Part shown: piece after piece, positions 24,776 to 63,714 of the stretch
Position numbering within the stretch: the stretch's first letter is position 1
Layout of the letters: every line of letters begins with the position of its first letter
Source: Strigamia acuminata
Taxonomy: Eukaryota
Direction: 5' to 3'
DNA length: 64,000 bases
Assembly (NCBI GenBank): GCA_949358305.1
Contig: OX442314.1
Coordinates: 7,378,001 to 7,442,000 of the forward strand
Translations under genes and position numbers: made by a program
Notes under the pieces: model-generated
What the model was told of the DNA's origin: nothing
Databases searched by the model: none
Seen by the model: the letters and a program-made list of their open reading frames with translations, nothing else

Positions 24776-27700
24776 TTATTTCTTCATTTGGAACCACGTC
24801 GAAAACCTTTTATTCTGATACCAAGCATAAGTGTTTAAAATGCAAACGTAGAAAGACAGCAAAGACATTCCTAAATCTAATCCTATGATGCTACCGACAT
24901 CGCTTAACAATTGAGATATCGGATACGCCTGTTGCTCTTCTATACTCTCTAAGAAAGTATCAGAGAATTCAATAGCTATTAATGTGACAGAAAAAGGAAA
25001 TAATTTATTCTCATTGCCATGAAAAACAAATTTGTGAAAAGTATTTTCGCAAGGCAGTCTACATTTGCATTGTTTTTGATTTGAGTCAAAATTCTTTAAA
25101 TATGTTAAATGAGCGGTAGTAATTTCTGCTGTTGTGTTACAAACTGGCAAGTCCGGCTTCCAGAAATAAGGTAATCTGAAACATTTATAAACTGTAGCAT
25201 GTAACTTAACTGACACAGCTAGGTGTTTTTTTATAAACAACTGGTGTATGCGTATTTACAGTTACTGTATGTGTTGCAAACAGGATAAAATCGGAATTGA
25301 TATGTGTAAAAAGTGAAGTGTCTGGATTAGCGTACCTGCAGTTAACAGTTTGAAACAGATTGTTTTGGATGCAAGCATTTTTACACTTGAGATAAGAACT
25401 TTTGTTCTGCTCACATGGATTTTGCTTTGTATTTCTTCGTATAGTCTATTTCATAAAATCGAATTAAGTTTAAATAAAAGCATGTAAGTATTGTTTGTTT
25501 AATTTATTGCCTTAAGTGCTCGAAGTGCTACTAAGTTTCCCCAATCATAGTTTAAAGTCAAAGATGCCAAAATGTTAACGTCTTCATCCAGATTATTTAG
25601 GAAAATCTAAATATTATTATTATTATTCACAATGTGTAGAGTATTTATCCATAATTAACAAAATGTTCTTTGACTAATCTTTGCATTTAATTACTCCATT
25701 GGAGTGTTGAATGCAATAAATAATAAATAAATATTACCTTCAGATCCTGGTCACATGGTTTGTGAGGAAATTCATTAGATAATGAAATAAGAAGGTAAGA
25801 ATTTAGGTCCTTTGATTTTTCTGAAAAATATTGGAAAGGTCAGGATAAAAACGTCAGATGCATGAGTTCGTAGAAAGAATTTTTAAAAGACTAATAATTC
25901 AACAACATTTGCAGAGTTTTGTGAAAATTATGCAGAATTTTGTGAAACATATGCAGAATTTAGTGTAACATATGCAGAATTTTGTGAAACATGTGCAGAA
26001 TTTTGTGAAACATGTGCAGAATTTTGTGAAACATGTGCAGAATTTTGTGAAACATATGCAGAATTTTGTGAAACATATGCAGGAGTTGATGTTTCATTCA
26101 AGGCAATTTCACCCCAAGTCATTAATCACCTACCAGCAAAAAATAGATTTGGTGATTGATGTAAATCATACAAATAGTGTTGAACACCATCAGGTCCATC
26201 CAAAATAAATTTATTCTCTTCACTTTTTTGGCCAGTTACGTGTTGTTGGATCAGCAATGATGATTTGGGGTAAAATTCCCTTGCATTTGGTCTCAAACTT
26301 TTTTCCAGCATTTATTTCCACGGGATTTATTTTCACGGGATTTATTTCCACGGGATTTATTTCCACGGGATTTATTTTCACGGGATTTATTTTCACGGGA
26401 TTTATTTCCACGGGATTTATTTCCACGGGATTTATTTCCACGGGATTTATTTCCTAGGGATTTATTTCCACGGGATTTATTTCCACGGGATTTATTTATG
26501 AGCCACAGCAACGCATGTCCGGGCACAGCTAGTACGGGAATAAAAGTGCATCTTAGAATCGATGAAATACGGTAATCAGGTGCAGATCTAGCATAGGGCT
26601 AATGGGGCTTGAGCCCCGGGCCCCCAAATTCTAGGGGCCCCCCAAGACACAGGGCAATGTACTAAAAAAAAATAAAAAAAAGGTTGCTAAAAATAAGAAA
26701 AACTAAGAAAGGTCGCTATTAAAAATTTCGATAAAGGTGCCCCGAAAAAACCTCAAGCCCCGGGTTCCCGAAAAGCTATATCCGCCCCTGACGGTAATGC
26801 TGTTAATAAATGCCATAATAAAAACTAAGGGTGAAGCTGGGTGGTAAAGAGTGACAATAATAAAAACATAAATTGAACGCAAAACCACATTACAATTACC
26901 TATGTTAACTCGTGAACAATTACCGAAAGGAAGTGGAATAGTATGCTTTGATATATTTAATTTAATTTTATATCCATACAACACCTACAAAAATAATAAT
27001 TTTTATTCATTGTCATTTGTTTTTGGATAATATAAAATACTAGAATACCTCATTCTCAATATCAATGATATCATGGACATTGAGTGTTTCCCAGATTTCT
27101 TCCAGTGACAATTCGTTGCTGAACAATTGCCAGGGCGATATTTCGTTGCAAGTTTTGTTGGTTTGTTTCAGTAAGTTTGATCTGGCTTCGTCCATGGCAT
27201 CATTTTGGTTTTCACCACAGACCGTGACTGACTGAAATTCTGTGTAGCGACGTTGAACTATTCTAACCATTGTTGTTACTGGTTCATCAAAGTAGTAGTT
27301 GATACGAATTTGCAACCAATATAAAGTGAATCCCGCAGTCACAAATACTAGCATAAACTTAAGTTTTTTTAAGACACCAAATGTCGTAGTTTGCTCTTTA
27401 TTCTCAACGATTTTTTTCTTGCATATCTCGTACAGAGGGCGAATCTTATCAACGGATGTTTTTCGGTGAATGTTTTTTGCAACATAATGTAAATACCAAG
27501 TGAGTTCAGGTAATGAAATTAACGCTAGGCCAAAAAACAGGCCAAGATTGCCTCCTAAATCTGCCAGTAGGGCAATTGCGTCGTACGTGTATCGCTCTTC
27601 ATACACACTAATTTTGTCATTAGCAATTGCTAGAGATACAGATGCAGTTTTTTTATCATCTGCTATGCCTATTTCAGTGGTAGATGTAAAGGTTATTTGA

Positions 27701-30095
27701 TGACATGGACGTTTACAGCGACAAACATTAATGGGATTTGTGGTTTGAATCAACTGCGTTGTAGCAAAATAATGCATCCGTATGTCCACTAAACATTTGC
27801 AAAGCGGCAAATCGATCTTCATGAAGGGAAACCTTTAATGGAAGATTTGTAATCATTATTTTTTTATACAGGGTGGTGCAGAAAGTTTGGTTCACAGTAA
27901 ATAATTCCCAAACTGTTCTAGATGTTGATTCAGCAAAATGATTGTAAGAGTACAGAATAGTATGTCAGGGAAATCCAATTATGACATCCAATCTGAGGTC
28001 ATCTTCAAGGGCATCTATATTGTAACTCAAGAACTGTGACAGTTAGAGCAAAAAAGTGAATTAGAAAGTTGTAGAGCATCATCCAATTAGTCTAGAACTG
28101 TTCTTAAAAAAATTATTTTTTACTGAAAAGTTTTGAAAAAAAAGGTCTGAAACATTAGTTTACTCAGCATTGTAACTCAGCTTTGTAACCTAAAAGTATT
28201 GAGGCAACCAAGCTAATCCTCAATTAGGACACTTTATTCGGTCATACTTGTAAGTGGAAGAGAGGAAACACAAAAGAAAAGAAATAATTTATTTTGTAAA
28301 TACATTCCACATGGTAGTTTTAGGTTACTAACATTTCAAATTTTTTTTCTCAAAACTTTTCGGTAAGAGATAATTTTTTTAAGAACAGTTCTAGACTAAT
28401 TGGATGATGCTCTACAACTTTCTAATTCACTTTTTTGCTCTAACTGTCACGGTTCTCGAGTTACAATATGGATGACCTTGAAGATGATCTCAGAGGTCAA
28501 ATTGGATGTCATAATTGGATTTCCCCCGACATACTACTCTTACAATCATTTTGCTGAATCAACATCTAGAACAGTTTGGGAATCATTTACTGTGAACCAG
28601 ACTTTCTGCACCAATTGGACAGGTATGACATGGGGAACGGAATTGAAATTGGGAATGGAATGTAAAACAAACAACAAACAAACAATGTGATTCAACATGT
28701 GTAGCCATGTTGTCTGTTGACGACACAATACAATCCAACAAAATTAGAACTCAAAGTGCGCGTAATAACAAGAAAACTTTCTGCAGTTGGAACCTTATAC
28801 TAAGTTTAGTAGGTTCCCGCAACCCATTTCTTACTTTTCCCATCACAAACCAATACTCACAGCAAATACAAACAACAACAAAACCAGAAATGACACTCAC
28901 AAATTCCCCCAACCTCATCTAAACACACAACACAAACATTCCTTCATCTCTGGACGTAGTTGTACGTTTGGCATAGTAGGGACTCTGCCCCTTTGCAATT
29001 TGTTTGATTTCTTACCTGCATGGTAGCTTCTTCAATTTCTTCAATAGACACTTCCGATAGCATTCTCTGTATTCGTCTTCACCGGAGCATTCATTTATTG
29101 GTGAATTCAGAAAAATAAACTAAAATTTTTGAATAAAATAAGGTGATGCATAGCAATTTTCGTTCTTTGATAAAATTTTACTTTGTTATAACTTAAATAA
29201 ACTTTTGTTGTTCCACCGGCATATTGTATTCCCACCCCAAAACTTTTTCCAAAATCGTAGAGATGAATGAAAATCTAAGGGCAAAAGAAAGAAAAGTAGA
29301 GAACAATTATTTTTGCAATTTATTAAAATTACACTGTATATCGATACAGGGCATATGTCATCATAACTTGCTATTTTAACTGTTACGACTTGTCCAACTA
29401 AAGATTCGCTAGATGTCTTAGCTATATATCAATAAATAATAAAATGCTTTGAAATTGATATTGGTAAATTTTTTATTATACTTACAAAATTGAATTGATG
29501 AGCATATACCAAGTTGATTGATCATTTCTGTCGAAACAAATGTTTTGTTTGAATTAGAATATCCCTATGCAAAATAAAGAAATTTAAATAATTTTTTTAA
29601 CTTATTAGAAATTACTTAATTCCATCTTTTTACTTTAATTTTTACGCTCACTACTTCTTTAGTCAAATTACTCGCTTTCCAAATTTCCTCTAGATTGTAA
29701 GTTGGGATTTCCATCAGTGCATTCACCATTTTCATGCAGTCGACACGTGAAGGTTGGGATTTTGCGTTAGTTTTATTCCAAAGTCCGGCTATTTCTTTCG
29801 TATTGCTACCGCATATCGTCAAACTTGGTAAAACGACCTCTTCCGACCTACTCGTTACATCAACAGCCGTAGGATAACTTAAGTAATGCATTATCCTATC
29901 GTAAGTCTGATAAGTGAGCATGCACGTGCAAAATGAGAATAAAAGTAGCCAAATGGTGTGACGCTTTGTCCAATGTTTTCTGCTGTTAATGAAATCATCC
30001 AAACCAACTAAGTTGCATCGAAGTGTATTTGCATCATCCTTCAACAATCGATGAATTGCAGGACGTAGTCTCCTCACCAAATTATTATTCCGCAT
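24776..30095 (-). CDS. Tandem two-repeat DEG/ENaC channel, copy A (11 exons, 794 aa)
   Basis: Exons 30095-29634, 29564-29486, 29421-29333, 29274-29182, 29119-29016, 27832-27049, 26984-26900, 25820-25738, 25606-25511 (GC donor), 25445-25336, 25175-24776 join without stops. TM1a WLLLFSFC..YLSYPT, GIC, CRCKRPC, TM2a LLADLGGNLGLFFGLA, TM1b, GNC, CKCRLPC, TM2b LLSDVGSIIGLDLGMS. Confidence 0.88.
25910..26080. repeat. 21-bp minisatellite (gcagaattttgtgaaacatat)
   Basis: About 8 units; only about 3-4 in the paralogous intron at 59637-59703. Confidence 0.85.
26310..26495. repeat. 15-bp minisatellite (tttatttccacggga)
   Basis: About 12 units; shorter degenerate array at 61010-61095. Confidence 0.88.
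26577..26790. mobile_element. hAT-type MITE
   Basis: 8-bp TSD acggtaat on both sides; imperfect TIR caggtgcagatctag / ctatatccgcccctg; empty site in paralogue D near 61170. Confidence 0.85.
27869..28613. mobile_element. Long-TIR foldback Tc1/mariner-like MITE (right tip lost) in ENaC-A intron 5
   Basis: ta|cagggtggtgcagaaagtttggttcacagta...; about 270-bp inverted arms; shares the gaaagttgtagagca motif with 35858-36609. Confidence 0.75.
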
Positions 30096-30145
30096 TGTAT
30101 CTTATTTAAATCCAAGGTTTATTCTGGAATGACAATTGATGATTA

Positions 30146-30359
30146 CCGTATTTTGTCGATTAATAGCCGCGGCTTTTATTCAAAACTGCCATTTTTGTCA
30201 GCATATACAGTTTCGGTTTTTCATTTGTTACATTTGTTTAATGTAACAAACGAAGTCTGAACGTCACAAACAAAGCGTACATTTATCGTTCGTAAGGTTA
30301 AATACTACTATTCGAGGGCGGCTACAATTCGAGGGCGACTCTTAATCCGTAAAATACGG
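30146..30359. mobile_element. TA-flanked MITE (ccgtatttt TIR) just upstream of ENaC-A
   Basis: ta|ccgtattttgtcgattaa ... ttaatccgtaaaatacgg|ta; paralogous copy at about 63769-64000 upstream of ENaC-D. Confidence 0.7.
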
Positions 30360-30438
30360 TATAAACAATTTAATTATTGAATAGAATAAGTGTAGATATC
30401 ATGATCTTTTTACCTGCTTTTGGTGGTGTGAAAAGGTA

Positions 30439-30710
30439 CAGTCGTATTCAAAAAAATTGGACCCTCACTCTAAGCTGGCCATTGAGATTGCGAGTACTTT
30501 TGTGTCTTGCCTTTAGGTTAAACATCAGACATCAGCAGGTGATAATAAGTTACTTGCATACCCTTGTCTGCTATGCAAGTATTATACTATGGTAGTACAA
30601 GTATTATCACCTGTTGATGTCTGGTGTTTCACCTAGTGGCAAAATATTAACTTACTCACAATGTTACTTGCCAGCATAGAATGAGGGTCCAGTTTTTATG
30701 AACACGACTG
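30439..30710. mobile_element. Tc1/mariner-like foldback MITE
   Basis: ta|cagtcgtattcaaaaaaattggaccctca ... tgagggtccagtttttatgaacacgactg|ta; same family as 2791-3240. Confidence 0.8.
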
Positions 30711-31535: not shown

Positions 31536-31549
31536 TAATGCAATCCTGG

Positions 31550-33686: not shown

Positions 33687-34472
33687 TTACTCAATCCTAA
33701 TCTTATACCAATTATAAGTGTTTAAAATGCAAATGTAGAGAGACAGTAATGACATTCCCAAACCTAATCCTACAATACTACCGACATCGCTTAACAATTG
33801 AGACATTGGATAAACTTCTTGCTCTTCTATACTCTCCAACAGTGTATCAGGGAATTCAATATTTATCATTGTCACATAATTAATAAATTTTGATCCGTGC
33901 AAAACATATTTGTAAAAACTATTTTCACATGGTAATTTACATTTGCATTGTTTTTGATTTGAATCAAAATTCTTTAGATACATTAAATGAACAGAAGTAG
34001 ATTCGTTTGTTGTGTTACAAACTGGCAGATTCGGCCTCCAGAAATAAGGCAATCTGAAACTAAGCTTGAAATTTACTTACAACCATGCATATAGTTTATT
34101 TGCTGAATGAACTAGATGTGTTCATACTGTGTATGTACTGTATGTTGCAAATACAATTCAATTAGAATTGAGATATTAAAAAGTGAAATATCTAAACCGA
34201 CATACCTGCAGGTAACATTTTGAACTAAATTGTTTCTCATGCAAGCTTTTTTACACTTTAAATAAGCACTTTTGTTCTTTTCACATGGATTACGCTTTGT
34301 ATTTCTTTGAATAGTCTATTTTATAAAATCAAGGTAGTTAAGTTTAGGCATTTATATAATTTGTTTAATTTTCTACCTTAGATTCTCTAAGTGTTACCAT
34401 GTTCCACCAATGATAGTTTACAGCTAACGGTGCCAGAATATTAACCTCTTCTTCTAGATTATTTGGGAAAAA
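33687..34472 (-). CDS. Orphan block of ENaC exons 9-11 (copy B): partial gene or alternative 3' module of copy C
   Basis: Exons 34472-34377, 34315-34206, 34053-33687 have intact GT-AG sites, correct phases and no stops (..CKCKLPCE..LLSDVGSIVGLGLGMSLLS); no matching exons 1-8 found between 34472 and 40315. Confidence 0.7.
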
Positions 34473-34979
34473 CTAAATATTCAAAAGTAGGTGAATAAGT
34501 ATGTACACTTATCCATAAATCACAAGATATACAGGTTTGGACAATAATACAGTAAACCAGAAGTTTGAATAAAATTTATCTTTGGGAACAAAAACTCCCA
34601 CAGATTGTGTTCACAAATTGCAGGGCCGCTGCTGAAATGTATGGCGTTTTTACGCAAAGACTAATATGGCGCCTTCCCCCTCCCTTGATTTTTTGGTACG
34701 GCGACGTTTCATCGCGGCTAGGTAATCGCACGGACAAGTAATTGCGCGGGCATGTAATCGCATAAAAAGTAATAGCGTGGTCAACTTATCAGGGCGACTA
34801 TTGGGCGGTTGTCAAGTAATTGCTTGATTCATTGCGTAATTCATCGCATTCCAAAAACCTTTCAAAAAGATTGCTGCAATCCGGGTTATTTCGAACAAAT
34901 TAAAAATTAATCTGCTCGAGTTACCGCAGGTGAATGCTATGAAAGACTTATATCGCGGCCTTAAAATTATCTAGGGTTA

Positions 34980-39350: not shown

Positions 39351-40314
39351 AGGTGATGTCGTAATAAACTGTGTGGAAATTTGATTTGAACACTTCAATT
39401 TTTTTCCCCAACAATTTTACTAGATCTGTAATTTATAGTGTTGAAGTTTTAGTGAAGAATTTGACTGAGGGACGAAAATTACGATAGAATGAACCCATTA
39501 ATGTTTACGAATTATTTTTTATTAATTCTCTTAAAAGATGCAGTGTACATTTTAATTTAGTCATAACAACAATTTTTGCTCAATAATTTGAAATGTGTAC
39601 ATCAATAGGTAAAAGTACAAACTTACACAAGTTACCCAACTAAATATGGAATATAAAATTGGAAACAGAAATAGCTTTAGTTTTATTTTGCATTTAAACA
39701 AATATACGACGTCTTAAACATGTGTTTTTAATTCATTTATCAATACAATGTATAAAGTTCGTAGGGTGTTAGAAGGGCAAACAAAAAAACGCACTGGGTG
39801 GACAATAATGATTTTTGCTGGTTCATGTTGAACTTACAATTCCTGATGATTAAATATAGATTTATTTTTTAACCTGTGTCAAAAGAAATTTTAAATGTTC
39901 TTACATGTGCTTAGCTAATATTAGTAATGCTTTATTTAAACCCATTAGAGTGTAAATCTACAATCAATATTTTACTTTCGATACCAATTATAAGTTTTTA
40001 AAATGCAATCGTACAAAGAGAGTAGTGACATTCCCAAACCTAGTCCTACAATGCTACCGAAAAGTAAGTTATATTAGCAGTTGCTGTTCTTCTAACTGGA
40101 CTACTAGTACATGTGCACATGATTTTAAGTTCCATAAAGGTAAATTACTTTAAATTTTTTTTAATAATAAATGAAGTAAACTTTAAGATAAATAAAACTT
40201 TTAAAAACCAATGCGCATTTTACATCTTATACAAACATACTGTAGGAGCCAGACTATCCCATTTAAACGTAGGAATAACATGTCACATATGGATAGCTTT
40301 AACGTAGTCATAAT

Positions 40315-43300
40315 TTATTGCTTCTGTTGTAAACAAATCAACACAATCCTAATCTTATACCAGTTATAACTGTTTAAAATGAAGATGTAGAGAGACAGTA
40401 ATGACATTCCCAAACCTAATCCTAAAATGCTACCGATATCACTTAGCAATTGACATATTGGATATTTCAATTGCTCTTCTATACTCTCTAAGAAAGTATC
40501 AGGGAAGTGAATAAGTATTATTGTGATAGCATTATATAACACCTTATTCCCATACAAAATAATTTTGTTAAAACTATTTTCGCATGGGAGACTACATTTG
40601 CATTGTTTCTGATTTGAGTTAAAGTTCTTTAAATACACTAAATGAGCAGTTGTAATTTCACTTGTTGTATTGCAAACTGGCAAATTTGTTCTCCAGAAAT
40701 ATGGTAATCTAAAACAAACAGTAAAATGGTGAAATTGTTGTCGAACCACGTATATCTGTTGATAAAACTAGATATGTTCAATAACATACTTGCAGTTAAC
40801 AGTTCGAAATAAATTGTCTTGCATGCATGCATTTTTACACATGAAATATGCAGTTTTGTTTTGTTCACAGGGATTACGCTTTGTATTTCTTTGTATAGTC
40901 TATTTTTAAAAAAAAATCATGGTTTGTAAGTATTAGCGTGTGTAATTTGTTTAATTTATACCTCAGATCTTCGAAGTGCTACAGCATTCAACCAAAAATA
41001 ATTTAATTCCAACGACACCACGATATTAACATCTTCGTCCAGGTTATTTAGGAAAAACTGAATTCAAAATTATGTATATGAGAATTGTGTATACTTATAC
41101 GTAAATAACAAATATACAGGTATACCATAGCTTAGTACATTTAGAAACTGTTGTAATTGAATGGAGAACGATCGCATTGATTGTTGAAGATAAAGTTCGT
41201 TTATTCGCGCACACACACTGAACACGAACCGCACGCTGTAGTCACGATACAAGAAGTGACTGGAAGTCATGTGACGTGATTGGTGCGTGAGATTACACCC
41301 AACTCCCCCTGGCGGTGGGAGACCCTCATTCGAGATTTACAATACAATAAGCCAGGTGACATAAAATACCAACAGAAACTTCTGTCTCAATTTGTTCAGT
41401 TTTAAGTTTAAATCTTAAATTTGGTTTTACGGCATTATTAGTGCTCATCACAAGTAAAACAAAAGAGTTAAAGTTGTTAGATCTGATCAGTATACGTTTT
41501 TGTTTTCATTCTATACTCTGGCTCACTATAAGTTAGGCCTATTACCCATTGGCTAAGCTTAATTACTCACTGTGTGCTACCACCAGGAAAAGTAGTTCAC
41601 TTTTGTTTTATTTTGTTAAACTAATGGTGACAGTCTTGTCTAGTTATGCTGTAAAGGCAGGCTGTCTCTTTGTCATTATATTATAGGATATATCTCCTAT
41701 TTTTTACATTTGTCCTTTACTTTATAAGTTTGTATCATGTGGTCTAATACTCTCTGGCCACTCACTCATTCTAAGTTTCAACGGAATAAACATGGCGCCC
41801 CTTTTGGGACCTTCACCGCATATCAAAAAGTGATTTTCTCTCGATGAATGTAGCGAACAATCCGATTAAAGTGGCAAAATTTAATTTTTTTTGTTTTTAT
41901 TTGTGATGAGCGGCAATAATGCCATAAAACCAAATTTTAGATTTATGTTACCTTTAGATGCTGGTCACAGACTTCTGAAGGAAACAGATTTTGAAATGTG
42001 ATTAAAAGTGGAGCATTTAGGTCGATTGTTTTTTCTGAAAAGTGTTCGAAAGGTTAGACTCAATTTTCACACCCATCTGGTGGAAAGGAGTTTTCATAAG
42101 CAAAAAACCCATTGAGTTGAGTGTAAGTTGAGTTTCTTAAGAATAACCAGATAATGAATGAATGAATGAATGAATTATATTTGTAGATTACCTGTGTTTA
42201 TTCGTGAACAATTACCAAAAGGAAGTAAAACAGGATTCAGTGATATGTTTAGGGCTGCTATGTATCCAAAAAGTTTCTACAAAAACAATAATTTCTATTA
42301 CCGTATTACTGTTTCTTTTTGGAATATAGTGTAAGCCGTGTACCTCATCCTTAATATCAATTGTTTCGTGGACATTAAGTGTTTTCCAGATTTTGTCTAG
42401 CGACAAGTTTTTGCCGTACAATTGCCAGGGTGATATTTTATTGCAGGTTTTGTTAGCATGTTTCAGTTCGTGTAATCTGGCTTCATCCATCTCATTATTT
42501 TGTTTTTCACCACAGACCGTAACTGACTGATATTCTGTGTAGCGGCGTTCAACTATTCTAACCGTTTTTGTTACCGGTTCTTCAATGTAGTAGTTGAAAC
42601 GATTGTGCAAACAATATAAAGTGAATACTGTCATCACAAATACCAGGACAAACTGAAACTTTTCTGAGACTCTTGCTGTCAGGGTTTGCTCTTCATTCTC
42701 AATGACTTTCTTCTTGCATATCTCATACAGACAGCGTATCTTATTGACGGATGTTTTTTGCTCATTTTTTGTTGTGATGTAATATAAATACCAAGCAATT
42801 TCAGGTAATGAAAGAAATGATAGGCCGAGAAACAGGCCCAGATTGCCTCCTAAATCTGACAATAGAGCAATAATATCGTACGTGTAACGTTCTTCATACA
42901 CGCTAATTTTGTCATTAGTTATTGCTAAAGACACCGATACACTTTTTCTATTGTCTGCTGTGCCTGAATCAGTGGATTGTGTAATAGTTATTTGCTGACA
43001 AGGACGTCGACATAGACAATCAGAAATTGGATGTATTGTTTCAATCATCTTCTTTACAACAACATATTGCACATGTGTGTTGTTCGAACATTTGCAAAGC
43101 GGTAAATCAATTTTCATGAAGGGAAATCTTGTAAAGAAATTTTTTTATCATTGTTTTTTTATCCAATGATTACATCTCATATATTCTTCTTACCTGCATG
43201 TTAGATCCTTTTTAAATTTTTTCAATAGACAACTCCGATAACATTCTCTGTATTCGTCTTCACTGGAGCATTCATTGATAGGTGAATTAAGAAATAAAAA

Positions 43301-45594
43301 CTAAAAAATTTAAAACATATTAATGTATACAGTAGTATAAAATTAAGTTTTGGTTAATACTTTACTTTGTTATAACTGAGATAAGTTATGGATTTTGCAC
43401 CAGGGTAGAGCACTGCCACGCCAATTGGTTTTCCAAAATCATAGAATGAAAGTGCAACCTAAGTGCAATATAAAAAAATATATATTTAAATATAAATTTT
43501 ATTGATTAAAATTACCCAGTATGGTGCTGAAAGGCATATGGAATCATGAGTTTTTTCCAGTTTTACTGTCAGTACTTGCCCAGCAAATGAGTAACTAGAA
43601 CCTTCCACTATGATAAATGATAAAATGTATCAATGTATACTCTGGCTCACCATAAGAGTATGACCTCGGTCGAGCCTGTTTACTATCACTGTTTTAGTTA
43701 ATCTGATTATTTTAGATGTTTGAAGTAATGTAAAATGACTAATATTAGTCATATTAGTCAATATTAGTCATTTTACATTATTTCAAACATCTAAAATAAT
43801 CAAACTAATTAAAACCACAACAGAACTACTTTTCCTAGTGAAAGTATACAGGTACCTATATACGTAGCAGTGATGAGTAAACAGGCTCGACCGAGGTCAT
43901 ACTCTTATGGTGAGCCAGAGTATAGGTAGTGCTAAATGTTTGTTTATACTAGTATACTCTGTCTGACCTTAAGAATAGAGAAAACTCCAGCATTATTACT
44001 CCTTGTGTGAACCCACAAGCGAAAGTAGTTCCTTTCTATACTCAGGCTCACCGTTAAAGACACACTACTAACGCCAGTTCCTATTTGCCGAGCCTATTTA
44101 CTCCTTACTGTTGCCTGTATTATTCTACCAGGAAAAGTAGGTTTGTTTTAATTTTAATTACTTTGATTATTTTAGGTGTTTGTAATGATGTGAATTGTCT
44201 TATATGTGATAATAAAATATTTTAAAAAGTTTGGAAGGAATGTTTTATGTTTTAACTTCAAAATACATGATTGTTTAGTTCGTTAAATTTATCGGTTGCT
44301 TTTTCCAGCTGGTTGTTTTCAAATGTATGATCGATTGTTATGTCTGGACACAAAATGGCTTCCCGTAACTCAAGCGTTTGTATTTTGGCCTACTTTTATG
44401 TAGCCCTACACCAGTGAATAGGCTCGGCCAATAGGAACTGGTGTTAGTAGTGTGTCTTTAACGGTGAGCCTGAGCATAGTTTGAATTTTTCAAATTTTTT
44501 TATTACTACATCAGTTTAAGTGGTGTGGTTTTGTGTATATTAACTAATAAAATGTTGTTTCTCATTATCCAGTTAATGTGTAGTCTGTTTGTATTAACAT
44601 TCGCATATTTTTACACTTTATACTCTTTCCACACTCAAAATGCACCCTCTGAAGCTTGGCTCCCATTGGCCACCAATCAACTGCAGTTCTAAGGATTAGT
44701 ACACCAGTGATATGGTGGCCAATGGGAGCCAAGCTTCAGAGGGTGCATTTTGAGTGTGGAAAGAGTATAAAGGATAATTTTTCAGGAAATCAACAACCTT
44801 TGAAATGGTTATTGCTTGTCAAACAACTCCGGTAGTTGTTGTGTTGTTACTAAAACCTGGTGTTTTATTATAACCTGGTGTATTGTTCTACTTTTCGGTA
44901 TCACTACACCAGTGAAAAGGCCTCAACCAATGGGAGTTTTCTCTATTCTTAAGGTAAGACAGAGTATAGTTACGAAATTTAATTGTTGAGCATATTCCAT
45001 AGTGTCCAACAGCTTGTGTCAGAACAACTGTATTGTTAGAATATCCCTGTGCAAAATAAAGTGTATTTAAATTATTTTCCCTTGTGAATTAAGAAATACT
45101 TTTGTCATTCTTTTTACTTTTCTTTTTATGCTCACTATTTCTTCTGTCAAATTAGTCGCTTTCCAAAGTTCGTCTACATTGTAAGTTGGGTTTACCATCA
45201 GCGTTTGCAACATGTCAGCACATTCTTCAGTTCCAGCTTTGACTTTTCCATAAGTTTTATTCCAAAATCTAGTCATTTCTTTCGTATTGCTACTGCATAT
45301 CTCCAATTTTGGTAGAACGACATCTTCCGGTCTATTCGTTACGTCAATAACCGTAGGATAACTCAAGTAATACATTATTCTATCGTAAGTAAGGTAAGAG
45401 AGCATGCACGTGCAAAATGAGAATAAAAGCAGCCAAAATACGTGACGTTTTCTCCAATGTTTTCTATTGTTTACGAAATCATCCAATCCAATTAAGTTGC
45501 ATTTATGTTTATTTTCGTCATCTTTCAACAAGCGATGAATTGCCAAATTTAGTAATCTTTGACTCTTTCTTCTCATTAAATAATTATTCTGCAT
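40315..45594 (-). CDS. Tandem two-repeat DEG/ENaC channel, copy C (11 exons, 797 aa)
   Basis: Exons 45594-45118, 45046-44974, 43607-43516, 43458-43366, 43300-43194, 43127-42344, 42276-42192, 42034-41952, 41057-40962, 40899-40790, 40708-40315 join in frame; TM2a LLSDLGGNLGLFLGLS, TM2b LLSDIGSILGLGLGMS. Confidence 0.88.
43636..43924. mobile_element. TATACTC-family foldback MITE
   Basis: tatactctggctcaccataagagtatgacctcggtcgagcctgtttact perfectly mirrored at the right end. Confidence 0.85.
43953..44968. mobile_element. TATACTC-family MITE containing two nested family members (44037-44478, 44619-44769)
   Basis: Three distinct, properly nested inverted-repeat pairs, each starting TATACTC. Confidence 0.85.
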
Positions 45595-49331: not shown

Positions 49332-50084
49332 TTTTTAATAAAAATATAGTCAGTTGAAAAATATAGTTTTCATTTTTTAATTTTCTCTAATTTTTCAGCA
49401 TTTGTTGATTTTGTTTAATTTAATCGAAATGGTTGGAGACTTTGTTCCCTTCAGCGCTGGTTTCCTTCGCTTTCTAATAATTAAGGATAAAGGAGGGTGT
49501 ATATCGACTGACATTTCATAGTTTTGATGGAATTTTGAAAATATCAGTTTTTTTCATTGGCTTTTTGTACTTACAGTTTCCAAGTTACATTTCGTGGATC
49601 CGTAGTACTCGATCTGTTTCGTCTTGCCACAGCAATGCATTATATAGATGTTGTCTGTTGGGAAAATAATTTAAAATTAATGACAGCTTAAATAAATTAT
49701 CACTATGGCACGAATCATTGAAAAGGTGGTTTCCCCTACCGGTAATCACCAGTTGAATGTCAGGAAACCTATCATTAAAAATTTTTTGAAAGACCTTTTT
49801 TCAGAAGAAATAATGATGTTTAATTACTATGTTGTGCACGTTTCTTCTCCAAACATGTTGTTGAAAATTTCTATTGACATTTTTCGTGTCAGCATATTTG
49901 ACGAGGCAAAATGCTATTTTGCCATTTTGTGGATTTCTGATAAATTTATTAAATTTTGTTAAGAAATTATGAAAAAAAGGATTGAAATTTGTACGTTTTT
50001 GTTTGGGACTTTGTGCTCTACGATTTAAATGTCAACGGATATTGAGTCGCGTGTCAAAAGTGTCTAAGTGTCAAAAATATAAAT

Positions 50085-51545
50085 AAAATATAGAAATGAG
50101 ATGCAAAAATAAAATGTAGAAATGACATGCAAAAATAAAATGTAGAAATGACATGCAAAAATAAAATGTAGAAATGACATGCAAAAATAAAATGTAGAAA
50201 TGACATGCAAAAATAAAATGTAGAAATGACATGCAAAAATAAAATGTAGAAATGACATGCAAAAATAAAATGTAGAAATGACATGCAAAAATAAAATGTA
50301 GAAATGACATGCAAAAATAAAATGTAGAAATGAGATGCAAAAATAAAATGTAGAAATGACATGCAAAAATAAAATGTAGAAATGACATGCAAAAATAAAA
50401 TGTAGAAATGACATGCAAAAATAAAATGTAGAAATGACATGCAAAAATAAAATGTAGAAATGACATGCAAAAATAAAATGTAGAAATGAGATGCAAAAAT
50501 AAAATGTAGAAATGACATGCAAAAATAAAATGTAGAAATGACATGCAAAAATAAAATGTAGAAATGACATGCAAAAATAAAATGTAGAAATGACATGCAA
50601 AAATAAAATGTAGAAATGAGATGCAAAAATAAAATGTAGAAATGACATGCAAAAATAAAATGTAGAAATGACATGCAAAAATAAAATGTAGAAATGACAT
50701 GCAAAAATAAAATGTAGAAATGACATGCAAAAATAAAATGTAGAAATGAGATGCAAAAATAAAATGTAGAAATGACATGCAAAAATAAAATGTAGAAATG
50801 ACATGCAAAAATAAAATGTAGAAATGACATGCAAAAATAAAATGTAGAAATGACATGCAAAAATAAAATGTAGAAATGAGATGCAAAAATAAAATGTAGA
50901 AATGACATGCAAAAATAAAATGTAGAAATGACATGCAAAAATAAAATGTAGAAATGACATGCAAAAATAAAATGTAGAAATGACATGCAAAAATAAAATG
51001 TAGAAATGAGATGCAAAAATAAAATGTAGAAATGACATGCAAAAATAAAATGTAGAAATGACATGCAAAAATAAAATGTAGAAATGACATGCAAAAATAA
51101 AATGTAGAAATGACATGCAAAAATAAAATGTAGAAATGACATGCAAAAATAAAATGTAGAAATGACATGCAAAAATAAAATGTAGAAATGACATGCAAAA
51201 ATAAAATGTAGAAATGACATGCAAAAATAAAATGTAGAAATGACATGCAAAAATAAAATGTAGAAATGAGATGCAAAAATAAAATGTAGAAATGACATGC
51301 AAAAATAAAATGTAGAAATGACATGCAAAAATAAAATGTAGAAATGACATGCAAAAATAAAATGTAGAAATGACATGCAAAAATAAAATGTAGAAATGAC
51401 ATGCAAAAATAAAATGTAGAAATGACATGCAAAAATAAAATGTAGAAATGACATGCAAAAATAAAATGTAGAAATGACATGCAAAAATAAAATGTAGAAA
51501 TGACATGCAAAAATAAAATGTAGAAATGACATGCAAAAATTAAAT
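50085..51545. repeat. Highly homogeneous 26-bp satellite (aaatgacatgcaaaaataaaatgtag), about 56 units
   Basis: Direct reading; a single C>G variant unit recurs. Confidence 0.97.
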
Positions 51546-52159
51546 GCACGCATGAATGAGCAGATTAAAACAAGACCAGGGAATTATCAAAGGATTTCTT
51601 TTTAATCTTTACCTTCGAGTTTAATTTTTACCATTTTTCATTGTTATCTAAGCCTACAGGTCTAATCTGTTAGAAAACAGGAATGTTTTCTTTTGTGTTT
51701 GGTGTACCGGTATCTGATTGATTTTCATTTGATCATTTTAGGTTTGGGTTTAGCTGTTTATCATTTATGTTAGCCAGAGATTTGGAAAGGTTCAAATGCC
51801 TGGTGTTATATTTTATGTTTATAGCTGTGATATTGTATTTCCTTGTTTGGTCTGGTTTTGTAGCAATTATAACACTAGACACTTTACCGTGTATTTACAT
51901 AGGATAAATCTCCTATTTGTTATTGTTATAATGATTTGTTCTCTTTTGGCTATGGCAAGAGAATATACTCTTGTCCCAGTGCTTTTTCAACATTTTAAGT
52001 TTGCATTAAAAATGGCCGATGCATGTGTATCAGATTGCACACTCTTAAATAAAGTTATGGTTCCTTCTTGGTCGCACACAGGCGTTAAATGGTCAGCAAA
52101 TGACCAACATAATCTTGGTGTCATTTTTGAGATTCGTCCTTAGAAACCTATTCTTACAT

Positions 52160-57959: not shown

Positions 57960-58140
57960 CGCTATATTTTATTGCTTCTTACACCAATTATGACTGTTTA
58001 AAATGCAGATATAGAGAGACAGTAATGACATTCCAAACTTAATCCTACAATACTGCCGACATCGCTTAACAATTTAGACATTTGATAAGCTCGTTGCTCT
58101 TCTATACTCTCCAACAATGTATCAGGGAATTTCTTACTTA
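57960..58140 (-). pseudogene. Decayed extra copy of the ENaC last exon downstream of copy D
   Basis: Paralogous to 24361-24550 (DTLLESIEEQRAYQMSKLLSDVGSIVG...), with an indel in TM2. Confidence 0.7.
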
Positions 58141-58506
58141 TATTGTGGCAATTCTCATGTGAAAACTCAATGAGAATAGAGAGTTTATTTTGAAGGGCAA
58201 AAGTAGCAAACTTACTGCACCTTAACGTTGTAAAAATTTTTGAACAAGTTATTATTGCATGTTAAGAACGTTGCTAAGCAACTTTAACAATAATATGCGG
58301 TAGGGGTCTGAGTAACAACAATATTTCGCTGCATTGTGTACAGAAGTTTAGTGCAAAAATTAGTGCAACAATTTAATTTCGTGGCATTATAAACTAGCCT
58401 TTAAATGAACAACTGTAAACGATTAACAATACACTTAAGTTTAGAAGTAACATTTGAAAAAGTTTTAAATTGTCTTGCGCATAGATAGCTTTAATAATTT
58501 CATATT

Positions 58507-61500
58507 TTATTTCTTCTTTTGGAACCACATCGAAAAGCTCTTATTCTTACACCAAGTATAAGTGTTTAAAATGCAAACGTAGAAAGACAGCAAAGACATT
58601 CCTAAACCTAATCCTATGATACTACCGACATCGCTTAACAATTGAGATGTCGGATATGCCTGTTGCTCTTCAATACTCTCTAAGAAAGTATCAGAGAATT
58701 CAATAGTTATTAATGTGAAAGGAAAATTGAATATTTTTTGCTTATTGCCATGCAAAACAAATTTGTGAAAAGTATTTTCGCAAGGCAGTCTACATTTGCA
58801 TTGTTTTTGATTTGAGTCAAAATTCTTTAAATACATTAAATGAGCAGTAGTAATTTCTGCTGTTGTGTTACAAACTGGCAAGTCCGGCTTCCAGAAATAA
58901 GGTAATCTGAAACATTTACAAACAACTGTAGCATGTAACTTAACTGTCACAGCTAGGTGTTTTTTTTATAAACAACTTGTGTATGCGTATTTACAGTTAC
59001 AGTATGTGTTGCAAACAGGATAAAATCGGAATTGATATGTGTAAAAAGCGAAGTGTCTGGATTAGCTTACCTGCAGTTAATAGTTTGAAACAAATTGTTT
59101 TGGATGCAAGCATTTTTACACTTGAGATAAGAACTTTTGTTCTGCTCACATGGATTTTTCTTTGTATCTCTTCGTGTAGTCTATTTCATAAAATCAAAAT
59201 TAGTTAGAATGAAAGCATGGAAGAATTGTTTGTTTAATTTATTGCCTTAAGTACTCGAAGTGTTACTAAGTTGACCCAATCATACTTTAAAGTCAAAGGT
59301 GCCAAAATGTTAACGTCTTCATCCAGATTATTTAGGAAAAACTAAATATTATTATTATTCACAATGATGTGTATAGTATTTATCCATAATTGACAAAATG
59401 TTCTTTGACTAATCTTTGCATTCAATTACTCCATTGGAGTGTTGAATGCAATAAATAATAAATAAATATTACCTTCAGATCCTGGTCACATGGTTTGTGA
59501 GGAAATTCATTAAGTAATGTAATGTAAAGGTAAGAATTTAGGTCCTTTGATTTTTCTGAAAAGTATTGGAAAGGTCAGGATGAAAACTTCAGATGCATGA
59601 GTTCGTAGAACGAATTTTTAAAAGACAACAACCAATGCAGAGTTTTGTGAAACAAATGCAGAGTTTTGTAAAACATATGCAGAATTTTGTGAAACAAATG
59701 CAGAAGTTGATGTTTCATTCAAGGCAATTTTGCCCCAAGTCATTAATCACCTACCAGCAAAAAATAGATTTGGTGATTGATGAAAATCATACAAATAGTG
59801 TTGAACACCATCAGGTCCATCCAAAATAAATTTATTCTCTTCACTTTATTGGCCAGTTACGTGTTGTTGGATCAGCAATGATGATTTGGGGTAAAATTGC
59901 CTTGAATGAAACATCAGCTCTTGCATTTGGTCTCAAACTCCAGCATAGATGGCATTTTTTGAACAATTTTTTTATTTCTTTAATTTGATTTGAGCTATTG
60001 TCATATAATTTTACACAATGCTTTATTATCATGTATTATTATCATGTAAGTCAAAATTTGACGTACAACCAAGACACTTGGAGTAGTCTCAAACCTTTAA
60101 ATGGGAATTAAACACATCTTAATACTTATCGGAATACATCCTACCAGAATGGTGGTGGAAATGTTAAGGTTTGAGGTGCATTCAGCTATAAGGGAAAGAC
60201 CACCCTTGTCTTTATTTCTGGTAGGATGTATTCCGATAAGTTTTAAGATGTGTTTAATTCTCATTTATAGCCCTGGATGATAAGAATTGCTGGACAAAAG
60301 GCCATCTTTCAACAGGTAATGCTCCCATCCATGTATTCAAGGCAACATTGTTGGGAAGAAATTGATCAAATGGTTCTTCAAAAACTAATTGATGGGATGA
60401 AAGATTGAATTTGTAGACTAATTGAACATAAGGGAAGTTTCACAGGGTATTGAAAATGTATAAATCTGCAATTTTCACAATAAGAGATAATAATTTTGTG
60501 CAAGTAAAAATCTACAAATGCCAGAAATTTTAATATTTAAGTAAAATATTACTGCATAGCAGTGTAAATGGAAATATTATTTAATAATAAATATGATTTC
60601 ATTGTAATTCCTAGGCATTATCATTCCCAACACAACAATTGGAGAAATTTTAACACCGTGATAATTCTTTTGTGAGCACCTTATACGAGGTAGATTTTGG
60701 GCGTTTTGCGCATTGAAAACTGCATGTAAACATTTTTTCGTTCTAAGATATCACCGATTATAAGACGCACCCTGCTTTTAAAGGTATTTACTGTATTCTG
60801 TATAAATAAAAATGTATGTTTGTTTGTTACTGACCTCAAATCTCCAAAGGTTCTTCAACGATTGCTTTGAAATTTTGACAGAACATTGCATTGGAATAGG
60901 GGACTGTTGTTGTTAGGTTTTTATATAGATGTCACACCTGTGACAGGTAAAAACATGCTTTTTTGGATAAAAAGGGCCATCTAGTGGGCGTAAATACAAC
61001 ACACAACTCCACAGGATTTATTTCCCGGGATTTATTTCCACGGGAATAATTTCCATGGGATTCATTTCCAAGGGATTTATTTCCACGGAATTTATTTATG
61101 AGCCACAGCAACGCTTGGCCTGGGCACAGCTAGTATGGGAATAAAAGTGCATCTTAGAATCGATAAAATATGGTAATGCTGTTAATAAATGCCATAATAA
61201 AAACTCAGGGTGAAGCTGTGAGGTAAAGAGTGACAATAATAAAAACTAACTTAAATTGAACGCAAAAGCACATTACAATTACCTGTGTCAACTCGTGAAC
61301 AATTACCAAAAGGAAGTGGAATAGGATGCTTCGATATATTTAATTTAATTTTATATCCATATAACGCCTACAAAAACAATAATTTTCATTGATTGGTTTG
61401 TTTTGGGAATATAACATACTACTAGTACAGACATACCTCATTATCAATATCAATTGTGTCATGAATATTGAGTGTTTCCCAGATTTCGACAAGTGGAAAT

Positions 61501-63714
61501 TCGTGATTGAACAATTGCCAGGGCGATATCTCATTGCAGGTGTTGTTAGTGTGTTTCAGTAATTGTAATCTGGTTTCGTCCATGGCATCATTTTGATTTT
61601 CACCACAGATCGTAAAGGACTGATATTCGGTGTAGCGACGTTGAACTATGCTAACCATTGTTGTTACTGGTTCATCAATGTAGTAGTTGATACGAATTTG
61701 CAACCAATATAAAGTGAATCCCGCAGTCACAAATACTAGCGCAAACTTAAACCTTTCTAAGACTCCATTTGTTATGGTTTTCTCTTTGCTTGCAATGGCT
61801 TTCTTCTTGCATGTCTCGTACAGGGGACGAATCTTATCGACGGATTTTTTTTGGTAAATATTTGTTGCAACATAATATAAATACCAAATGATATCAGGTA
61901 ATGAGATTACGGAGAGACCTAGGAACAGGCCCAGATTTCCTCCTAAATCTGACAGAAGAGCAATTGCGTCGTACGTGTATCGTTCTTCATACACGCTAAT
62001 TTTGTCATTAGCAATTGCTAGGGATACAGATACTGTACTTTGATCATCTCCTTTGCCTATTTCAGTGGAAGGTGTAAAGGTTATTTGATGACATGGACGT
62101 CGACAGAGACAAGCAGTAATGGGATTTGTGGTTTGAATCAACTGCTTGGCAGCATTGTAATGCATCTGTATGTCCTTTGAACATTTACAAAGCGGCAAAT
62201 CGATCTTCATGAAGGGAAATCTTTGATGGAACATTTGTAATCAGTATATTTTTATGTAGAACTACATCTTTCTCTCTACTAAGCGGGCTGCAACAATTGG
62301 ACCAGAATGTCATACACTCATAAGGAGCGGAAATGATGTAGGGTACGGAAATGACGTAGGGAACAGAAATTACGCAGAAAACGAAAATCACGTAGAAAAG
62401 AGAAACACCGTAGGGAACGAACGGAAATCAAGTAGGAAACGAACGGAAATCAAGTAGGAAACGAACTGAAATCAAGTAGGAAACGAACTGAAATCAAGTA
62501 GGAAACGAACGCAAATCAAGTAGGAAACGAACAGAAATGACGTAGGACATGGTAACTCAAACAAACAATGTGATTTATCATGGGCAGCCACGCTGTCTGT
62601 TGACTGTTTTGATTTCTTACCTGCATGTTAGCTTCTTAAATTTCTTCAATAGACACCTCAGATAACATTCTCTGTATTCGTTTTGACCGTAGCATTCATT
62701 TATAGGTGAATTCAGAAAAATGAACTAAAATTTTTCAATAAAAAATAAGGTAATGCATAGGAATTTTCGTTCTTTGATAAAATTTTACTTTGTTATAACT
62801 CAAATAAACTTTTGTTGTTCCACCGCCATATTGTTGTCCAACCCCGAAAAATTTTCCAAAATCGTAGAAATGAAGACCAAGCTAAGGGCGAAGGAAAGAA
62901 AAGTAGACTAGAATTATTTTTGCAATTTATTAAAATTACAAAGTATATCGGAGCAGGGCATATGTCATCATAATTTGTTTCTATTTTAGCTGTCACGACT
63001 TTTCCAACAAATGATTCGCTAGATGCCTTAGCTGTATATCATTATATCAATAAATAATAAAGTGCATTGAACTTGATGGTGGTAAATTTTGATTATGCTT
63101 ACGAAATTGAATTGATGAGCATATACCAACATGATTGATCATTTCTGTCAGAACAAATGTTTTGTTTGAATAAGAATATCCCTATACAAAATAAAAAGAT
63201 TTAAATAATTTTTTTTTAACCTATTTAAAATTACTTTATTCCATCTTTTTACTTTTATTTTTACGCTCACTACTTCTTTCGTCAAATTACTCGCTTCCCA
63301 AAGTTCCTCTAGACTGTAAGTTGGGTTTCCCATCAGTGTATTTACCATGTTCACGCATTCGTAACGTGATGGTTGGGATTTTGAGTTAGTTTTATTCCAA
63401 AGTCTCGACATTTCTTTTGTATTGCTACTATATATCAACAAATTTGGTAGAACGACCTCTTCTGACCTACTCGTTACATCAACAGCCGTAGGATAATTTA
63501 AGTAATGCATTATCCTATCGTAAATCTGATAAGTGAGCATGCATGTGCAAAATGAGAATAAGAGCAGCCAAAAGGTGTTTCGCTTTGTCCAATATTTTCT
63601 ACTGTTAATGAAATCATCCAAACCAACTAAGTTGCATCGAAGTTTATTTGCATCATCCTTCAACAATCGATGAATTGCAGGACGTAGTCTCCTCACCAAA
63701 TTATTATTCCGCAT
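58507..63714 (-). CDS. Tandem two-repeat DEG/ENaC channel, copy D (11 exons, 795 aa)
   Basis: Exons 63714-63253, 63181-63103, 63031-62940, 62881-62789, 62724-62621, 62220-61437, 61367-61283, 59555-59473, 59341-59246 (GC donor), 59180-59071, 58906-58507 sum to 2388 nt with no internal stop. Confidence 0.9.
59710..59914. mobile_element. Small TIR element in ENaC-D intron 7
   Basis: gatgtttcattcaaggcaatttt..cccca mirrored at the right end; eroded counterpart at 26088-26280. Confidence 0.55.
60150..60453 (+). pseudogene. Tc1-family transposase remnant in ENaC-D intron 7
   Basis: GGGNVKV*GAFSYKG..LVFISGRM...FQQ(fs)NAPIH and C-terminal WEEIDQMVLQKLIDGMKD*ICRLIEHKGSFTGY*, matching Tc1/Tc3 DDE motifs; stops and a deletion. 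Confidence 0.8.
62330..62550. repeat. 17-22-bp tandem repeat (gaaatcaagtaggaaacgaac) in ENaC-D intron 5
   Basis: Direct reading. Confidence 0.8.

What the first reader, a model, noticed from the sequence alone, without database searches (positions are those of the whole stretch)
24776..63714. Family of naturally concatenated two-subunit (4-TM) DEG/ENaC channels
Seen: three paralogues (A 24776-30095, C 40315-45594, D 58507-63714) splice into intact ORFs of about 795 aa that contain two full ENaC repeats. TM2 of repeat 1 (LL[A/S]DLGGNLGLF[F/L]GL[A/S]), a basic linker of about 45 aa and TM1 of repeat 2 all lie in one stop-free 784-nt exon of identical length in all three genes, so this cannot be two neighbouring genes merged by prediction. 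Known: DEG/ENaC/ASIC/pickpocket subunits have two TMs and assemble as trimers. Inference: a covalent dimer cannot fill a three-fold pore alone. It would need a single-domain partner (2+1), three chains forming two linked pores or leaving repeats outside, or cleavage of the linker. I do not know of a described family with this architecture.
Basis: partly seen in the sequence, partly recalled or inferred. Interest (0 to 1): 0.93.

Follow-up and report, generated by a model that had tools for sequence, protein, structure and literature searches.

The report
Centipede double-subunit ENaC channel family
Three neighbouring genes each carry two sodium-channel (DEG/ENaC) subunits joined in one reading frame, a layout also seen in many centipede database proteins, and because such channels are built from three subunits the predicted double protein likely needs a separate third subunit to complete its pore.

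Summary
Confirmed. Genes A, C and D are intact 11-exon genes (794-797 aa), each with two DEG/ENaC repeats. TM2 of repeat 1, a 40-aa basic linker and TM1 of repeat 2 share one stop-free 784-nt exon. The repeats are 23% identical and repeat the same five intron positions and phases, so this is an old duplication fused head to tail. Both repeats show dN/dS below 1 and keep the pore-lining TM2 residues. The junction recurs in 20 hand-picked database proteins; all 12 that I looked up are Strigamia maritima models, some only about 27% identical. So this is an old, expanded centipede family, not a prediction artefact. The closest solved proteins are the single-domain centipede sensors BRTNaC1 and PDPNaC1. 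The same search exposed three-repeat, six-TM relatives in decapods, apparent single-chain trimers. Ten literature searches found no description of either. Most likely the dimer fills two adjacent positions of a trimer and a separate single-domain subunit completes it (inferred). Rivals: monomers by exon skipping or cleavage, or partner-free assembly into two linked pores. No RNA evidence or usable structure model was obtained.

The parts
58507..63714 (-). Gene D, tandem two-repeat DEG/ENaC, 795 aa. Exons 63714-63253, 63181-63103, 63031-62940, 62881-62789, 62724-62621, 62220-61437, 61367-61283, 59555-59473, 59341-59246, 59180-59071, 58906-58507
61437..62220 (-). Gene D exon 6 (784 nt): thumb and TM2 of repeat 1, linker (61871-61752), TM1 and finger of repeat 2
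40315..45594 (-). Gene C, tandem two-repeat DEG/ENaC, 797 aa. Exons 45594-45118, 45046-44974, 43607-43516, 43458-43366, 43300-43194, 43127-42344, 42276-42192, 42034-41952, 41057-40962, 40899-40790, 40708-40315
42344..43127 (-). Gene C exon 6 (784 nt) with the junction; linker 42778-42659
24776..30095 (-). Gene A, tandem two-repeat DEG/ENaC, 794 aa. Exons 30095-29634, 29564-29486, 29421-29333, 29274-29182, 29119-29016, 27832-27049, 26984-26900, 25820-25738, 25606-25511, 25445-25336, 25175-24776
27049..27832 (-). Gene A exon 6 (784 nt) with the junction; linker 27483-27364
33690..34481 (-). Remnant B: only exons 9-11 of a fourth copy (end of repeat 2); no exons 1-8 detected upstream
24373..24543 (-). 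Partial extra copy of exon 11 downstream of gene A (not a third repeat; lies after the stop)
57972..58141 (-). Partial, frameshifted extra copy of exon 11 downstream of gene D
39975..40073 (-). Short extra fragment of the exon-11 TM2 region downstream of gene C

Best explanation
Each gene holds two different DEG/ENaC subunits in one reading frame, predicted to make a four-helix membrane protein whose two halves likely take two neighbouring places in a three-subunit cation channel, with a separate single-domain subunit likely filling the third place. Shown: the open frame across the junction, two full repeats, shared intron positions, conservation of the junction across a large family, and pore-lining TM2 residues in both repeats. 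Inferred: an ancestral six-exon centipede-type gene duplicated in tandem, the copies diverged into two partner subunits, and loss of the first stop codon and the intergenic DNA fused them once; the fused gene then multiplied. Inferred: the basic, amphipathic linker lies in the cytoplasm and is not cut. Inferred: the channel is a fixed-order a-b + c heterotrimer, like ENaC alpha/beta/gamma with two subunits pre-joined, probably sensory, by analogy with the antennal channels BRTNaC1 and PDPNaC1 and with the fast-changing outer domains.
For: Junction in one stop-free exon of equal length in 3 of 3 genes. At the substitution and indel rates of the genes' own short introns, a non-coding 120-nt linker would stay open and equal in length in 1e-4 (D to C) or 0.065 (D to A) of 20,000 simulations each. 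No Met in 3 of 3 linkers, so repeat 2 has no start there. Repeats align at 23% over 349 columns, probability 98.7, with 11 aligned Cys pairs; introns 1-5 match introns 6-10 in phase (0,1,0,0,2) at offsets of 3, 0, 1, 0 and 0 codons. dN/dS is 0.44-0.59 for repeat 1 and 0.47-0.61 for repeat 2, with 95% intervals below 1 in 6 of 6 pair-by-repeat tests. On PDPNaC1 numbering (PMC12714832, passages and section 10; alignments) both repeats keep Asp372, Gly378 and Gly382-x-Ser384, apart from Ala for Ser in repeat 1 of gene A. Linker net charge is +3 to +9 with an amphipathic stretch in 7 of 7 close relatives. TM2-to-TM1 spacing is 92-93 residues in those 7 and 88-116 in all 23 junctions listed. Repeat 2 copies form one group (SH-aLRT 92 in a quick IQ-TREE; 0.86 in FastTree, where repeat 1 copies also group at 0.89 bar one partial row). 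Single-domain relatives exist near the family in both trees, including BRTNaC1 and PDPNaC1, which are solved as three-chain entries. Decapod three-repeat proteins with only 33-36 residues between the centres of TM2 and the next TM1 suggest that joined repeats can sit side by side in one pore.
Against: No transcript, protein or current was seen; the exon chain is a DNA model. No partner subunit was identified: the window holds none and no whole genome is held. An engineered ASIC1a dimer gave currents when expressed alone, with cleavage by-products (PMC4529235, passages), so a partner may not be needed. Constraint is modest: dN (0.094 D-A, 0.22 D-C) is close to short-intron divergence (0.073, 0.30), and the linker's own dN/dS interval includes 1 in 2 of 3 pairs. 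Repeat 2 differs at the lower gate (Ser or Asn for Gly375 in 9 of 10 rows printed) and lacks the usual acidic residue after the G-x-S motif in the window genes; gene A has an Asp inside this helix. Gene A has an AATAAA inside its linker. The S. maritima models are automatic and often partial or garbled. Repeat 1 is not resolved as one clade in the quick IQ-TREE, and the careful tree did not finish.
Confidence: 0.45

Rival explanations
1. The dimer assembles without a partner. Three chains would give six repeats and two pores (for example a2b plus ab2, tied by one linker), or two chains would give one trimer with a repeat left outside.
For: An engineered ASIC1a dimer is functional alone (PMC4529235, passages). 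Both repeats keep pore residues. A 40-residue linker could span two adjacent trimers (inference from chain length). No partner gene lies in the cluster.
Against: The engineered dimers shed monomers, which may explain their currents. The linker is nearly constant in length among close relatives (92-93 spacing), which fits a defined neighbour contact at least as well. An unpaired repeat would likely be retained in the ER (general knowledge).
Confidence: 0.22
2. The gene supplies its own third subunit. Skipping five consecutive exons, or cutting the linker, would yield a two-TM subunit that joins the dimer or forms ordinary trimers.
For: 14 of 15 possible five-exon skips are in frame and stop-free and give 408-414 aa two-TM proteins, for example exon 5 to exon 11. 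Engineered concatemers are partly cleaved in cells.
Against: The in-frame skips follow automatically from the duplicated intron phases and are no sign of use. The linker is predicted cytoplasmic, out of reach of furin-type enzymes (inference), and shows no conserved cleavage motif across the 23 junctions (by eye).
Confidence: 0.18
3. Two chains form a pseudo-four-fold pore (a-b-a-b), as two-pore-domain potassium channels do with their fused subunits.
For: Uses every repeat with no partner. One study argues for tetrameric ASIC1a at the cell surface (PMC4529235, passages).
Against: Solved DEG/ENaC structures are trimers (PMC10148893, passages), including the nearest centipede relatives. The 11 shared cysteines point to an unchanged fold. 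Decapod relatives fused three repeats, not four.
Confidence: 0.05
4. The halves are not made as one working chain: the genes are decaying copies, or transcripts end or start inside exon 6.
For: The cluster holds a remnant and partial copies. Amino-acid constraint is modest. Gene A has an AATAAA in the linker. No RNA was seen.
Against: No stop after TM2 of repeat 1 and no Met before TM1 of repeat 2 in the linker; 0 frameshifts in about 2,390 coding bases per gene against 23 gap events in 384 aligned short-intron bases (D-C); junction kept in proteins only about 27% identical.
Confidence: 0.1

Closest known systems
BRTNaC1 (Scolopendra subspinipes mutilans; PDB 8YMR/8YMW/8YMX; PMC9974506)
   Same: Top solved-structure hit for both repeats; compact centipede DEG/ENaC of 431 aa; 31% identity over 112 aa of thumb and TM2.
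   Different: Single domain, two TMs, three identical chains, seven exons. Not an orthologue in either tree. Heat and proton gating were not tested here.
PDPNaC1 (Scolopendra; PDB 9JF7; PMC12714832)
   Same: Next solved hit; shares the TM2 Asp, Gly378 and G-x-S, and also lacks the HG motif.
   Different: Single-domain homotrimer of 421 aa. Its proton-block Ser376 is Asn in repeat 1 and Ile in repeat 2 of the window genes.
ENaC alpha/beta/gamma and other obligate heterotrimeric DEG/ENaC channels
   Same: Different subunits in fixed places around one pore, as inferred here (ENaC heteromer: PMC10148893, passages).
   Different: Their subunits are separate two-TM chains from separate genes.
Engineered ASIC concatemers (PMC4529235, PMC10329638)
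   Same: Head-to-tail joining of TM2 to the next TM1 through a cytoplasmic linker gives working channels.
   Different: Artificial, with flexible linkers. Here the joining is natural, old, heteromeric and two-fold.
Unnamed Strigamia maritima UniProt models (T1JEH2, T1JEG4, T1JGJ4, T1IYF0, T1JD34, T1ITL7 and others)
   Same: Same TM2-linker-TM1 junction; 46-56% identity over exon 6 for the four closest; T1JD34 and T1ITL7 are full two-repeat models of 791 and 805 aa.
   Different: Listed as uncharacterised; many are partial; no description found in the searched literature.
Naturally fused channel subunits in other families (two-pore-domain K+ channels, two-pore channels, Nav/Cav; recalled, from no call)
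   Same: Fusion of duplicated subunits fixes order and allows an asymmetric pore.
   Different: There the repeat number divides the four-fold symmetry. Two does not divide three.

Membership tests
DEG/ENaC superfamily (each repeat) | Pfam ASC PF00858 above the curated cut-off | tested here: met
   10 of 10 exon translations score 35-63 bits against a cut-off of 23.6; two ordered domains per protein
DEG/ENaC superfamily (each repeat) | Two hydrophobic helices flanking a large extracellular domain | tested here: met
   By homology for both repeats; hydropathy alone found 3 of 4 helices in D and A
DEG/ENaC superfamily (each repeat) | Cysteine-rich thumb | tested here: met
   30-33 Cys per chain, 11 Cys pairs aligned between repeats
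DEG/ENaC superfamily (each repeat) | TM2 with Asp at the gate and G-x-S | tested here: met
   Asp in 6 of 6 window repeats; G-x-S in 5 of 6, G-x-A in repeat 1 of A
DEG/ENaC superfamily (each repeat) | Pre-TM1 His-Gly motif (common, not universal) | tested here: not met
   Val-Gly or Ile-Gly in repeat 1, nothing equivalent in repeat 2. Also absent from functional PDPNaC1 and present in only 43.4% of insect PPKs (PMC8438182), so not treated as defining
Canonical DEG/ENaC subunit (whole chain) | One repeat and two TMs per polypeptide | tested here: not met
   Two repeats per chain; the whole chain is therefore not filed as a canonical subunit
DEG/ENaC channels | Three repeats around one pore | not testable with these tools
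   Both structure models were unusable (pLDDT 31.9 and 38.1)
DEG/ENaC channels | Voltage-independent cation current, amiloride block | not testable with these tools
   Needs expression
BRTNaC1 / PDPNaC1 orthologues | Grouping with BRTNaC1 or PDPNaC1 in a tree | tested here: not met
   Neither groups with the window repeats as sister; they are more distant relatives
BRTNaC1 / PDPNaC1 orthologues | Proton-sensing residues (BRTNaC1 D217/E218; PDPNaC1 S376) | tested here: inconclusive
   S376 position is Asn or Ile; D217/E218 region was not aligned
Strigamia-type tandem DEG/ENaC family (defined here) | Collinear TM2-linker-TM1 junction with repeat-specific TM2 motifs | tested here: met

The most novel reading that the evidence does not exclude
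Arthropods have concatenated DEG/ENaC subunits more than once: centipede dimers that assemble without a partner into a double-barrelled channel with two tethered, differently composed pores (or, less likely, a four-repeat pore), and decapod single-chain trimers whose three pore positions evolve independently. That would be a new architecture for trimeric channels.
Probability: 0.25. Interest if true: 0.95.

Novelty: new variant of a known kind. Interest (0 to 1): 0.82.

Why it matters
DEG/ENaC subunits are described as two-TM chains that trimerise. A natural two-repeat chain breaks the arithmetic, so whichever way it assembles is informative. A 2+1 channel would show how an obligate heterotrimer with fixed subunit order evolves. 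Partner-free assembly would give the first tethered or non-trimeric member. It offers an evolved, apparently stable linker for a stoichiometry question so far probed only with engineered concatemers that shed monomers. The family is expanded in a centipede lineage whose single-domain relatives sense heat and acid, so it may be an unrecognised sensory receptor repertoire. The decapod three-repeat proteins would be natural single-chain trimers, ready-made tools for subunit-by-subunit study of the pore.

Tried and rejected
Whole-genome search: no genome is held, so no partner gene or copy number could be sought outside the window. RNA evidence: none obtained, so splicing and expression stay open. 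Structure prediction: P0001 alone gave pLDDT 31.9 and exon 6 with a six-row alignment 38.1; neither was used, and no fold search was run on them. Complex prediction was not sent: dimer plus monomer exceeds 1000 residues, and two halves would likely pass by likeness to solved trimers. ESM Atlas returned only single-domain ASC clusters of 376-584 aa; it covers only clusters of 50 or more members. Word-indexed protein searches found only 1-5 Strigamia relatives; the full HMMER search found the rest. A third repeat up- or downstream of A and C was sought with an HMM over 2,283 six-frame pieces and not found; only remnants. Gene D's upstream region is cut at 286 bases by the window end. Two-gene merge by prediction: rejected (one exon, no stop, no Met). 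Multi-repeat models from midge, spider and leech (P0040, P0051, P0094) were set aside as likely merged neighbours, because their repeats are each other's closest kin; not tested further. The careful IQ-TREE run did not finish. Earlier scan notes held nothing on this family. The species of the window was not determined.
Full report
Observation. The window is eukaryotic DNA with short AT-rich introns. Three minus-strand genes, D (63714-58507), C (45594-40315) and A (30095-24776), each resolve into 11 exons with AG acceptors and GT or GC donors, and translate to 795, 797 and 794 aa with one terminal stop; they are 63-82% identical. Exon 6 is 784 nt in all three, open in one frame only. Pfam ASC hits 10 of 10 exon translations tested, and an HMM built from 52 single-domain-length relatives plus the window repeats finds two ordered domains in each spliced protein. 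A hydropathy scan found 3 of the 4 expected helices in D and A and 4 plus one extra in C; the four-helix count rests on homology. A fourth copy survives only as exons 9-11 at about 33.7-34.5 kb, and partial exon-11 copies follow A, C and D. No third repeat was found among 2,283 six-frame pieces.

Origin. The two repeats align at 23% over 349 columns (hhalign probability 98.7) and share 11 aligned cysteines. Introns 1-5 and 6-10 have the same phases (0,1,0,0,2) at offsets of 3, 0, 1, 0 and 0 codons. Exon 6 is therefore the last exon of one ancestral six-exon gene fused to the first exon of its duplicate (inference).

Is the junction translated? The linker is 40 aa in 3 of 3 genes and has no Met and no stop. 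Simulating it as non-coding at the rates of the genes' own short introns keeps it open and equal in length in 1e-4 (D to C) and 0.065 (D to A) of 20,000 runs each. dN/dS is 0.44-0.59 in repeat 1 and 0.47-0.61 in repeat 2, with intervals below 1 in 6 of 6 tests. Against a strong-constraint reading, dN is close to short-intron divergence, and the linker's interval includes 1 in 2 of 3 pairs. Gene A has an AATAAA in its linker, C has one further down in exon 6, and D has none. No reads could be examined, so transcription is not shown.

Relatives. Word-indexed searches gave five Strigamia maritima models, four with the same junction at 46-56% identity over exon 6 and the fifth covering exon 1 only. 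A full HMMER search with the exon-6 product gave 250 hits, of which 150 were listed. Of 168 proteins then held, 49 showed two or more ordered repeats, some of them spurious. I picked 20 database proteins with a junction like the window's; the spacing from the TM2 Asp to the Pro after the next TM1 is 92-93 in the seven closest sequences and 88-116 over all 23 rows (one row is probably mis-picked by the pattern). Twelve of the 20 were looked up and all 12 are S. maritima; 8 were not looked up. Two are complete two-repeat models of 791 and 805 aa, one of them 27% identical to exon 6 across the junction. In FastTree, repeat 1 copies group at 0.89 (one partial row outside) and repeat 2 copies at 0.86. 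In a quick IQ-TREE of 59 rows, repeat 2 is one group (SH-aLRT 92) and repeat 1 falls in two groups beside it in an unresolved fork. One ancient fusion followed by expansion is the simplest reading. The window's three genes form their own branch, and no identical protein was returned, so the organism is likely a centipede related to Strigamia, species not determined.

Closest characterised proteins. For both repeats the best solved hits are the Scolopendra channels BRTNaC1 and PDPNaC1, single-domain channels of antennal neurons gated by heat and protons (PMC9974506, first two of five parts and passages; PMC12714832, passages and section 10). On PDPNaC1 numbering both repeats keep Asp372, Gly378 and Gly382-x-Ser384, except Ala for Ser in repeat 1 of A. 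Repeat 2 has Ser for Gly375, and A has an Asp within that helix. In the 10 repeat-2 rows printed, the G-x-S/C/T motif is kept in all, but position 375 is Ser or Asn in 9. Both repeats lack the His-Gly motif, as PDPNaC1 does. The linker is basic with an amphipathic stretch in 7 of 7 close sequences, fitting a cytoplasmic position (inference).

How it likely works. DEG/ENaC channels are trimers of two-TM subunits (PMC10148893, passages). Both repeats look pore-competent yet differ consistently, so I infer they were partner subunits that became joined and now occupy adjacent positions, with a single-domain subunit completing the trimer (0.45). Single-domain relatives exist near the family in both trees, but none is shown to be the partner. 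Rivals: partner-free assembly into two linked pores or with a repeat left out (0.22), since an engineered ASIC1a dimer conducts alone, though with cleavage products (PMC4529235, passages; PMC10329638, passages); a self-made monomer, since 14 of 15 five-exon skips are in frame and give 408-414 aa subunits (0.18); a four-repeat pore (0.05); no working fused chain (0.10). Structure models were unusable.

Beyond the window. One search also returned three-repeat proteins from decapods: a 1001-aa cluster with five Logan members on 3.4-4.0 kb contigs and Penaeus vannamei XP_069977668.1, a 1029-aa unnamed Logan cluster of the same type, a Halocaridina rubra model, and Petrolisthes models that appear similar. 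The 1001- and 1029-aa proteins show six hydrophobic segments, a reduced middle repeat, and only 33-36 residues between the centres of TM2 and the next TM1. Their repeats group by position and apart from the centipede repeats in FastTree, less firmly in IQ-TREE, which points to an independent single-chain trimer. Two S. maritima models (T1IU28, T1IZL2) also span parts of three similar repeats and may be a younger concatenation or merged neighbours.

Novelty. Ten searches of the held library listed no paper on natural multi-repeat DEG/ENaC proteins; I saw listings and abstract starts for most. Passage searches in the S. maritima genome paper (PMC4244043), DEG/ENaC and PPK surveys (PMC9822975, PMC8438182, PMC5203786, PMC10148893), chelicerate surveys (PMC5952958, PMC5381604), decapod transcriptome papers (PMC7067487, PMC7510291) and a P2X review (PMC4460280) showed none either. 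PMC8438182 notes that 46 insect PPKs (8%) have three to five predicted TMs, without calling them fusions. No supplements were read, and they or subscription journals could hold a mention. The sequences sit in UniProt as uncharacterised. Verdict: a real, old and expanded tandem DEG/ENaC family, a new variant of a known kind, with assembly untested. Interest 0.82.

Noticed in passing
P0055/P0160-P0164, P0049/P0159, P0139, P0157/P0165, P0153, P0056: Three-repeat, six-TM DEG/ENaC proteins in decapods (Penaeus vannamei XP_069977668.1, Halocaridina rubra, Petrolisthes; several on 3.4-4.5 kb Logan contigs), most with very short linkers and a reduced middle repeat: apparent natural single-chain trimers, independent of the centipede dimers. 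Worth its own follow-up.
   Followed up: partly
P0013, P0014, P0015, P0018 (S. maritima T1IU28, T1ITG7, T1IZL2, T1IL99): A second Strigamia group with two or three similar repeats per model, close to single-domain P0022 and P0031; a younger concatenation or merged neighbouring genes.
   Followed up: partly
P0040, P0051, P0094: Multi-repeat models from Polypedilum, Oedothorax and Helobdella whose repeats are each other's closest kin; likely merged tandem genes, not checked.
   Followed up: no
window 17178-21948, minus strand: Young LTR retrotransposon: identical 152-bp terminal repeats (17178-17329, 21797-21948) around an open 1399-codon frame (21601-17405). Type not tested.
   Followed up: no
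window 13891-16743, minus strand: PDCD2-like gene (zf-MYND and PDCD2_C hits).
   Followed up: no
window 10173-12602 and 1086-1600, minus strand: Arginase exons and an AMP-binding (acetyl-CoA synthetase-like) gene. A GC-rich stretch with a partial zinc-finger-like motif lies at 11203-11703 between arginase exons and has no Pfam hit.
   Followed up: no
window 59246 and 25511 (intron 9 donors of D and A): GC-AG intron in D and A where C and remnant B have GT.
   Followed up: no
window 63719 and 30100: An acceptor-like AG five bases before the start codon of D and A suggests a 5' untranslated exon upstream.
   Followed up: no
window 50081-51546 and 8780-9535: Long tandem arrays: 26-bp unit in 56 copies at 98% match, and 17-bp unit in 45 copies. 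Their long open frames are repeat artefacts.
   Followed up: no
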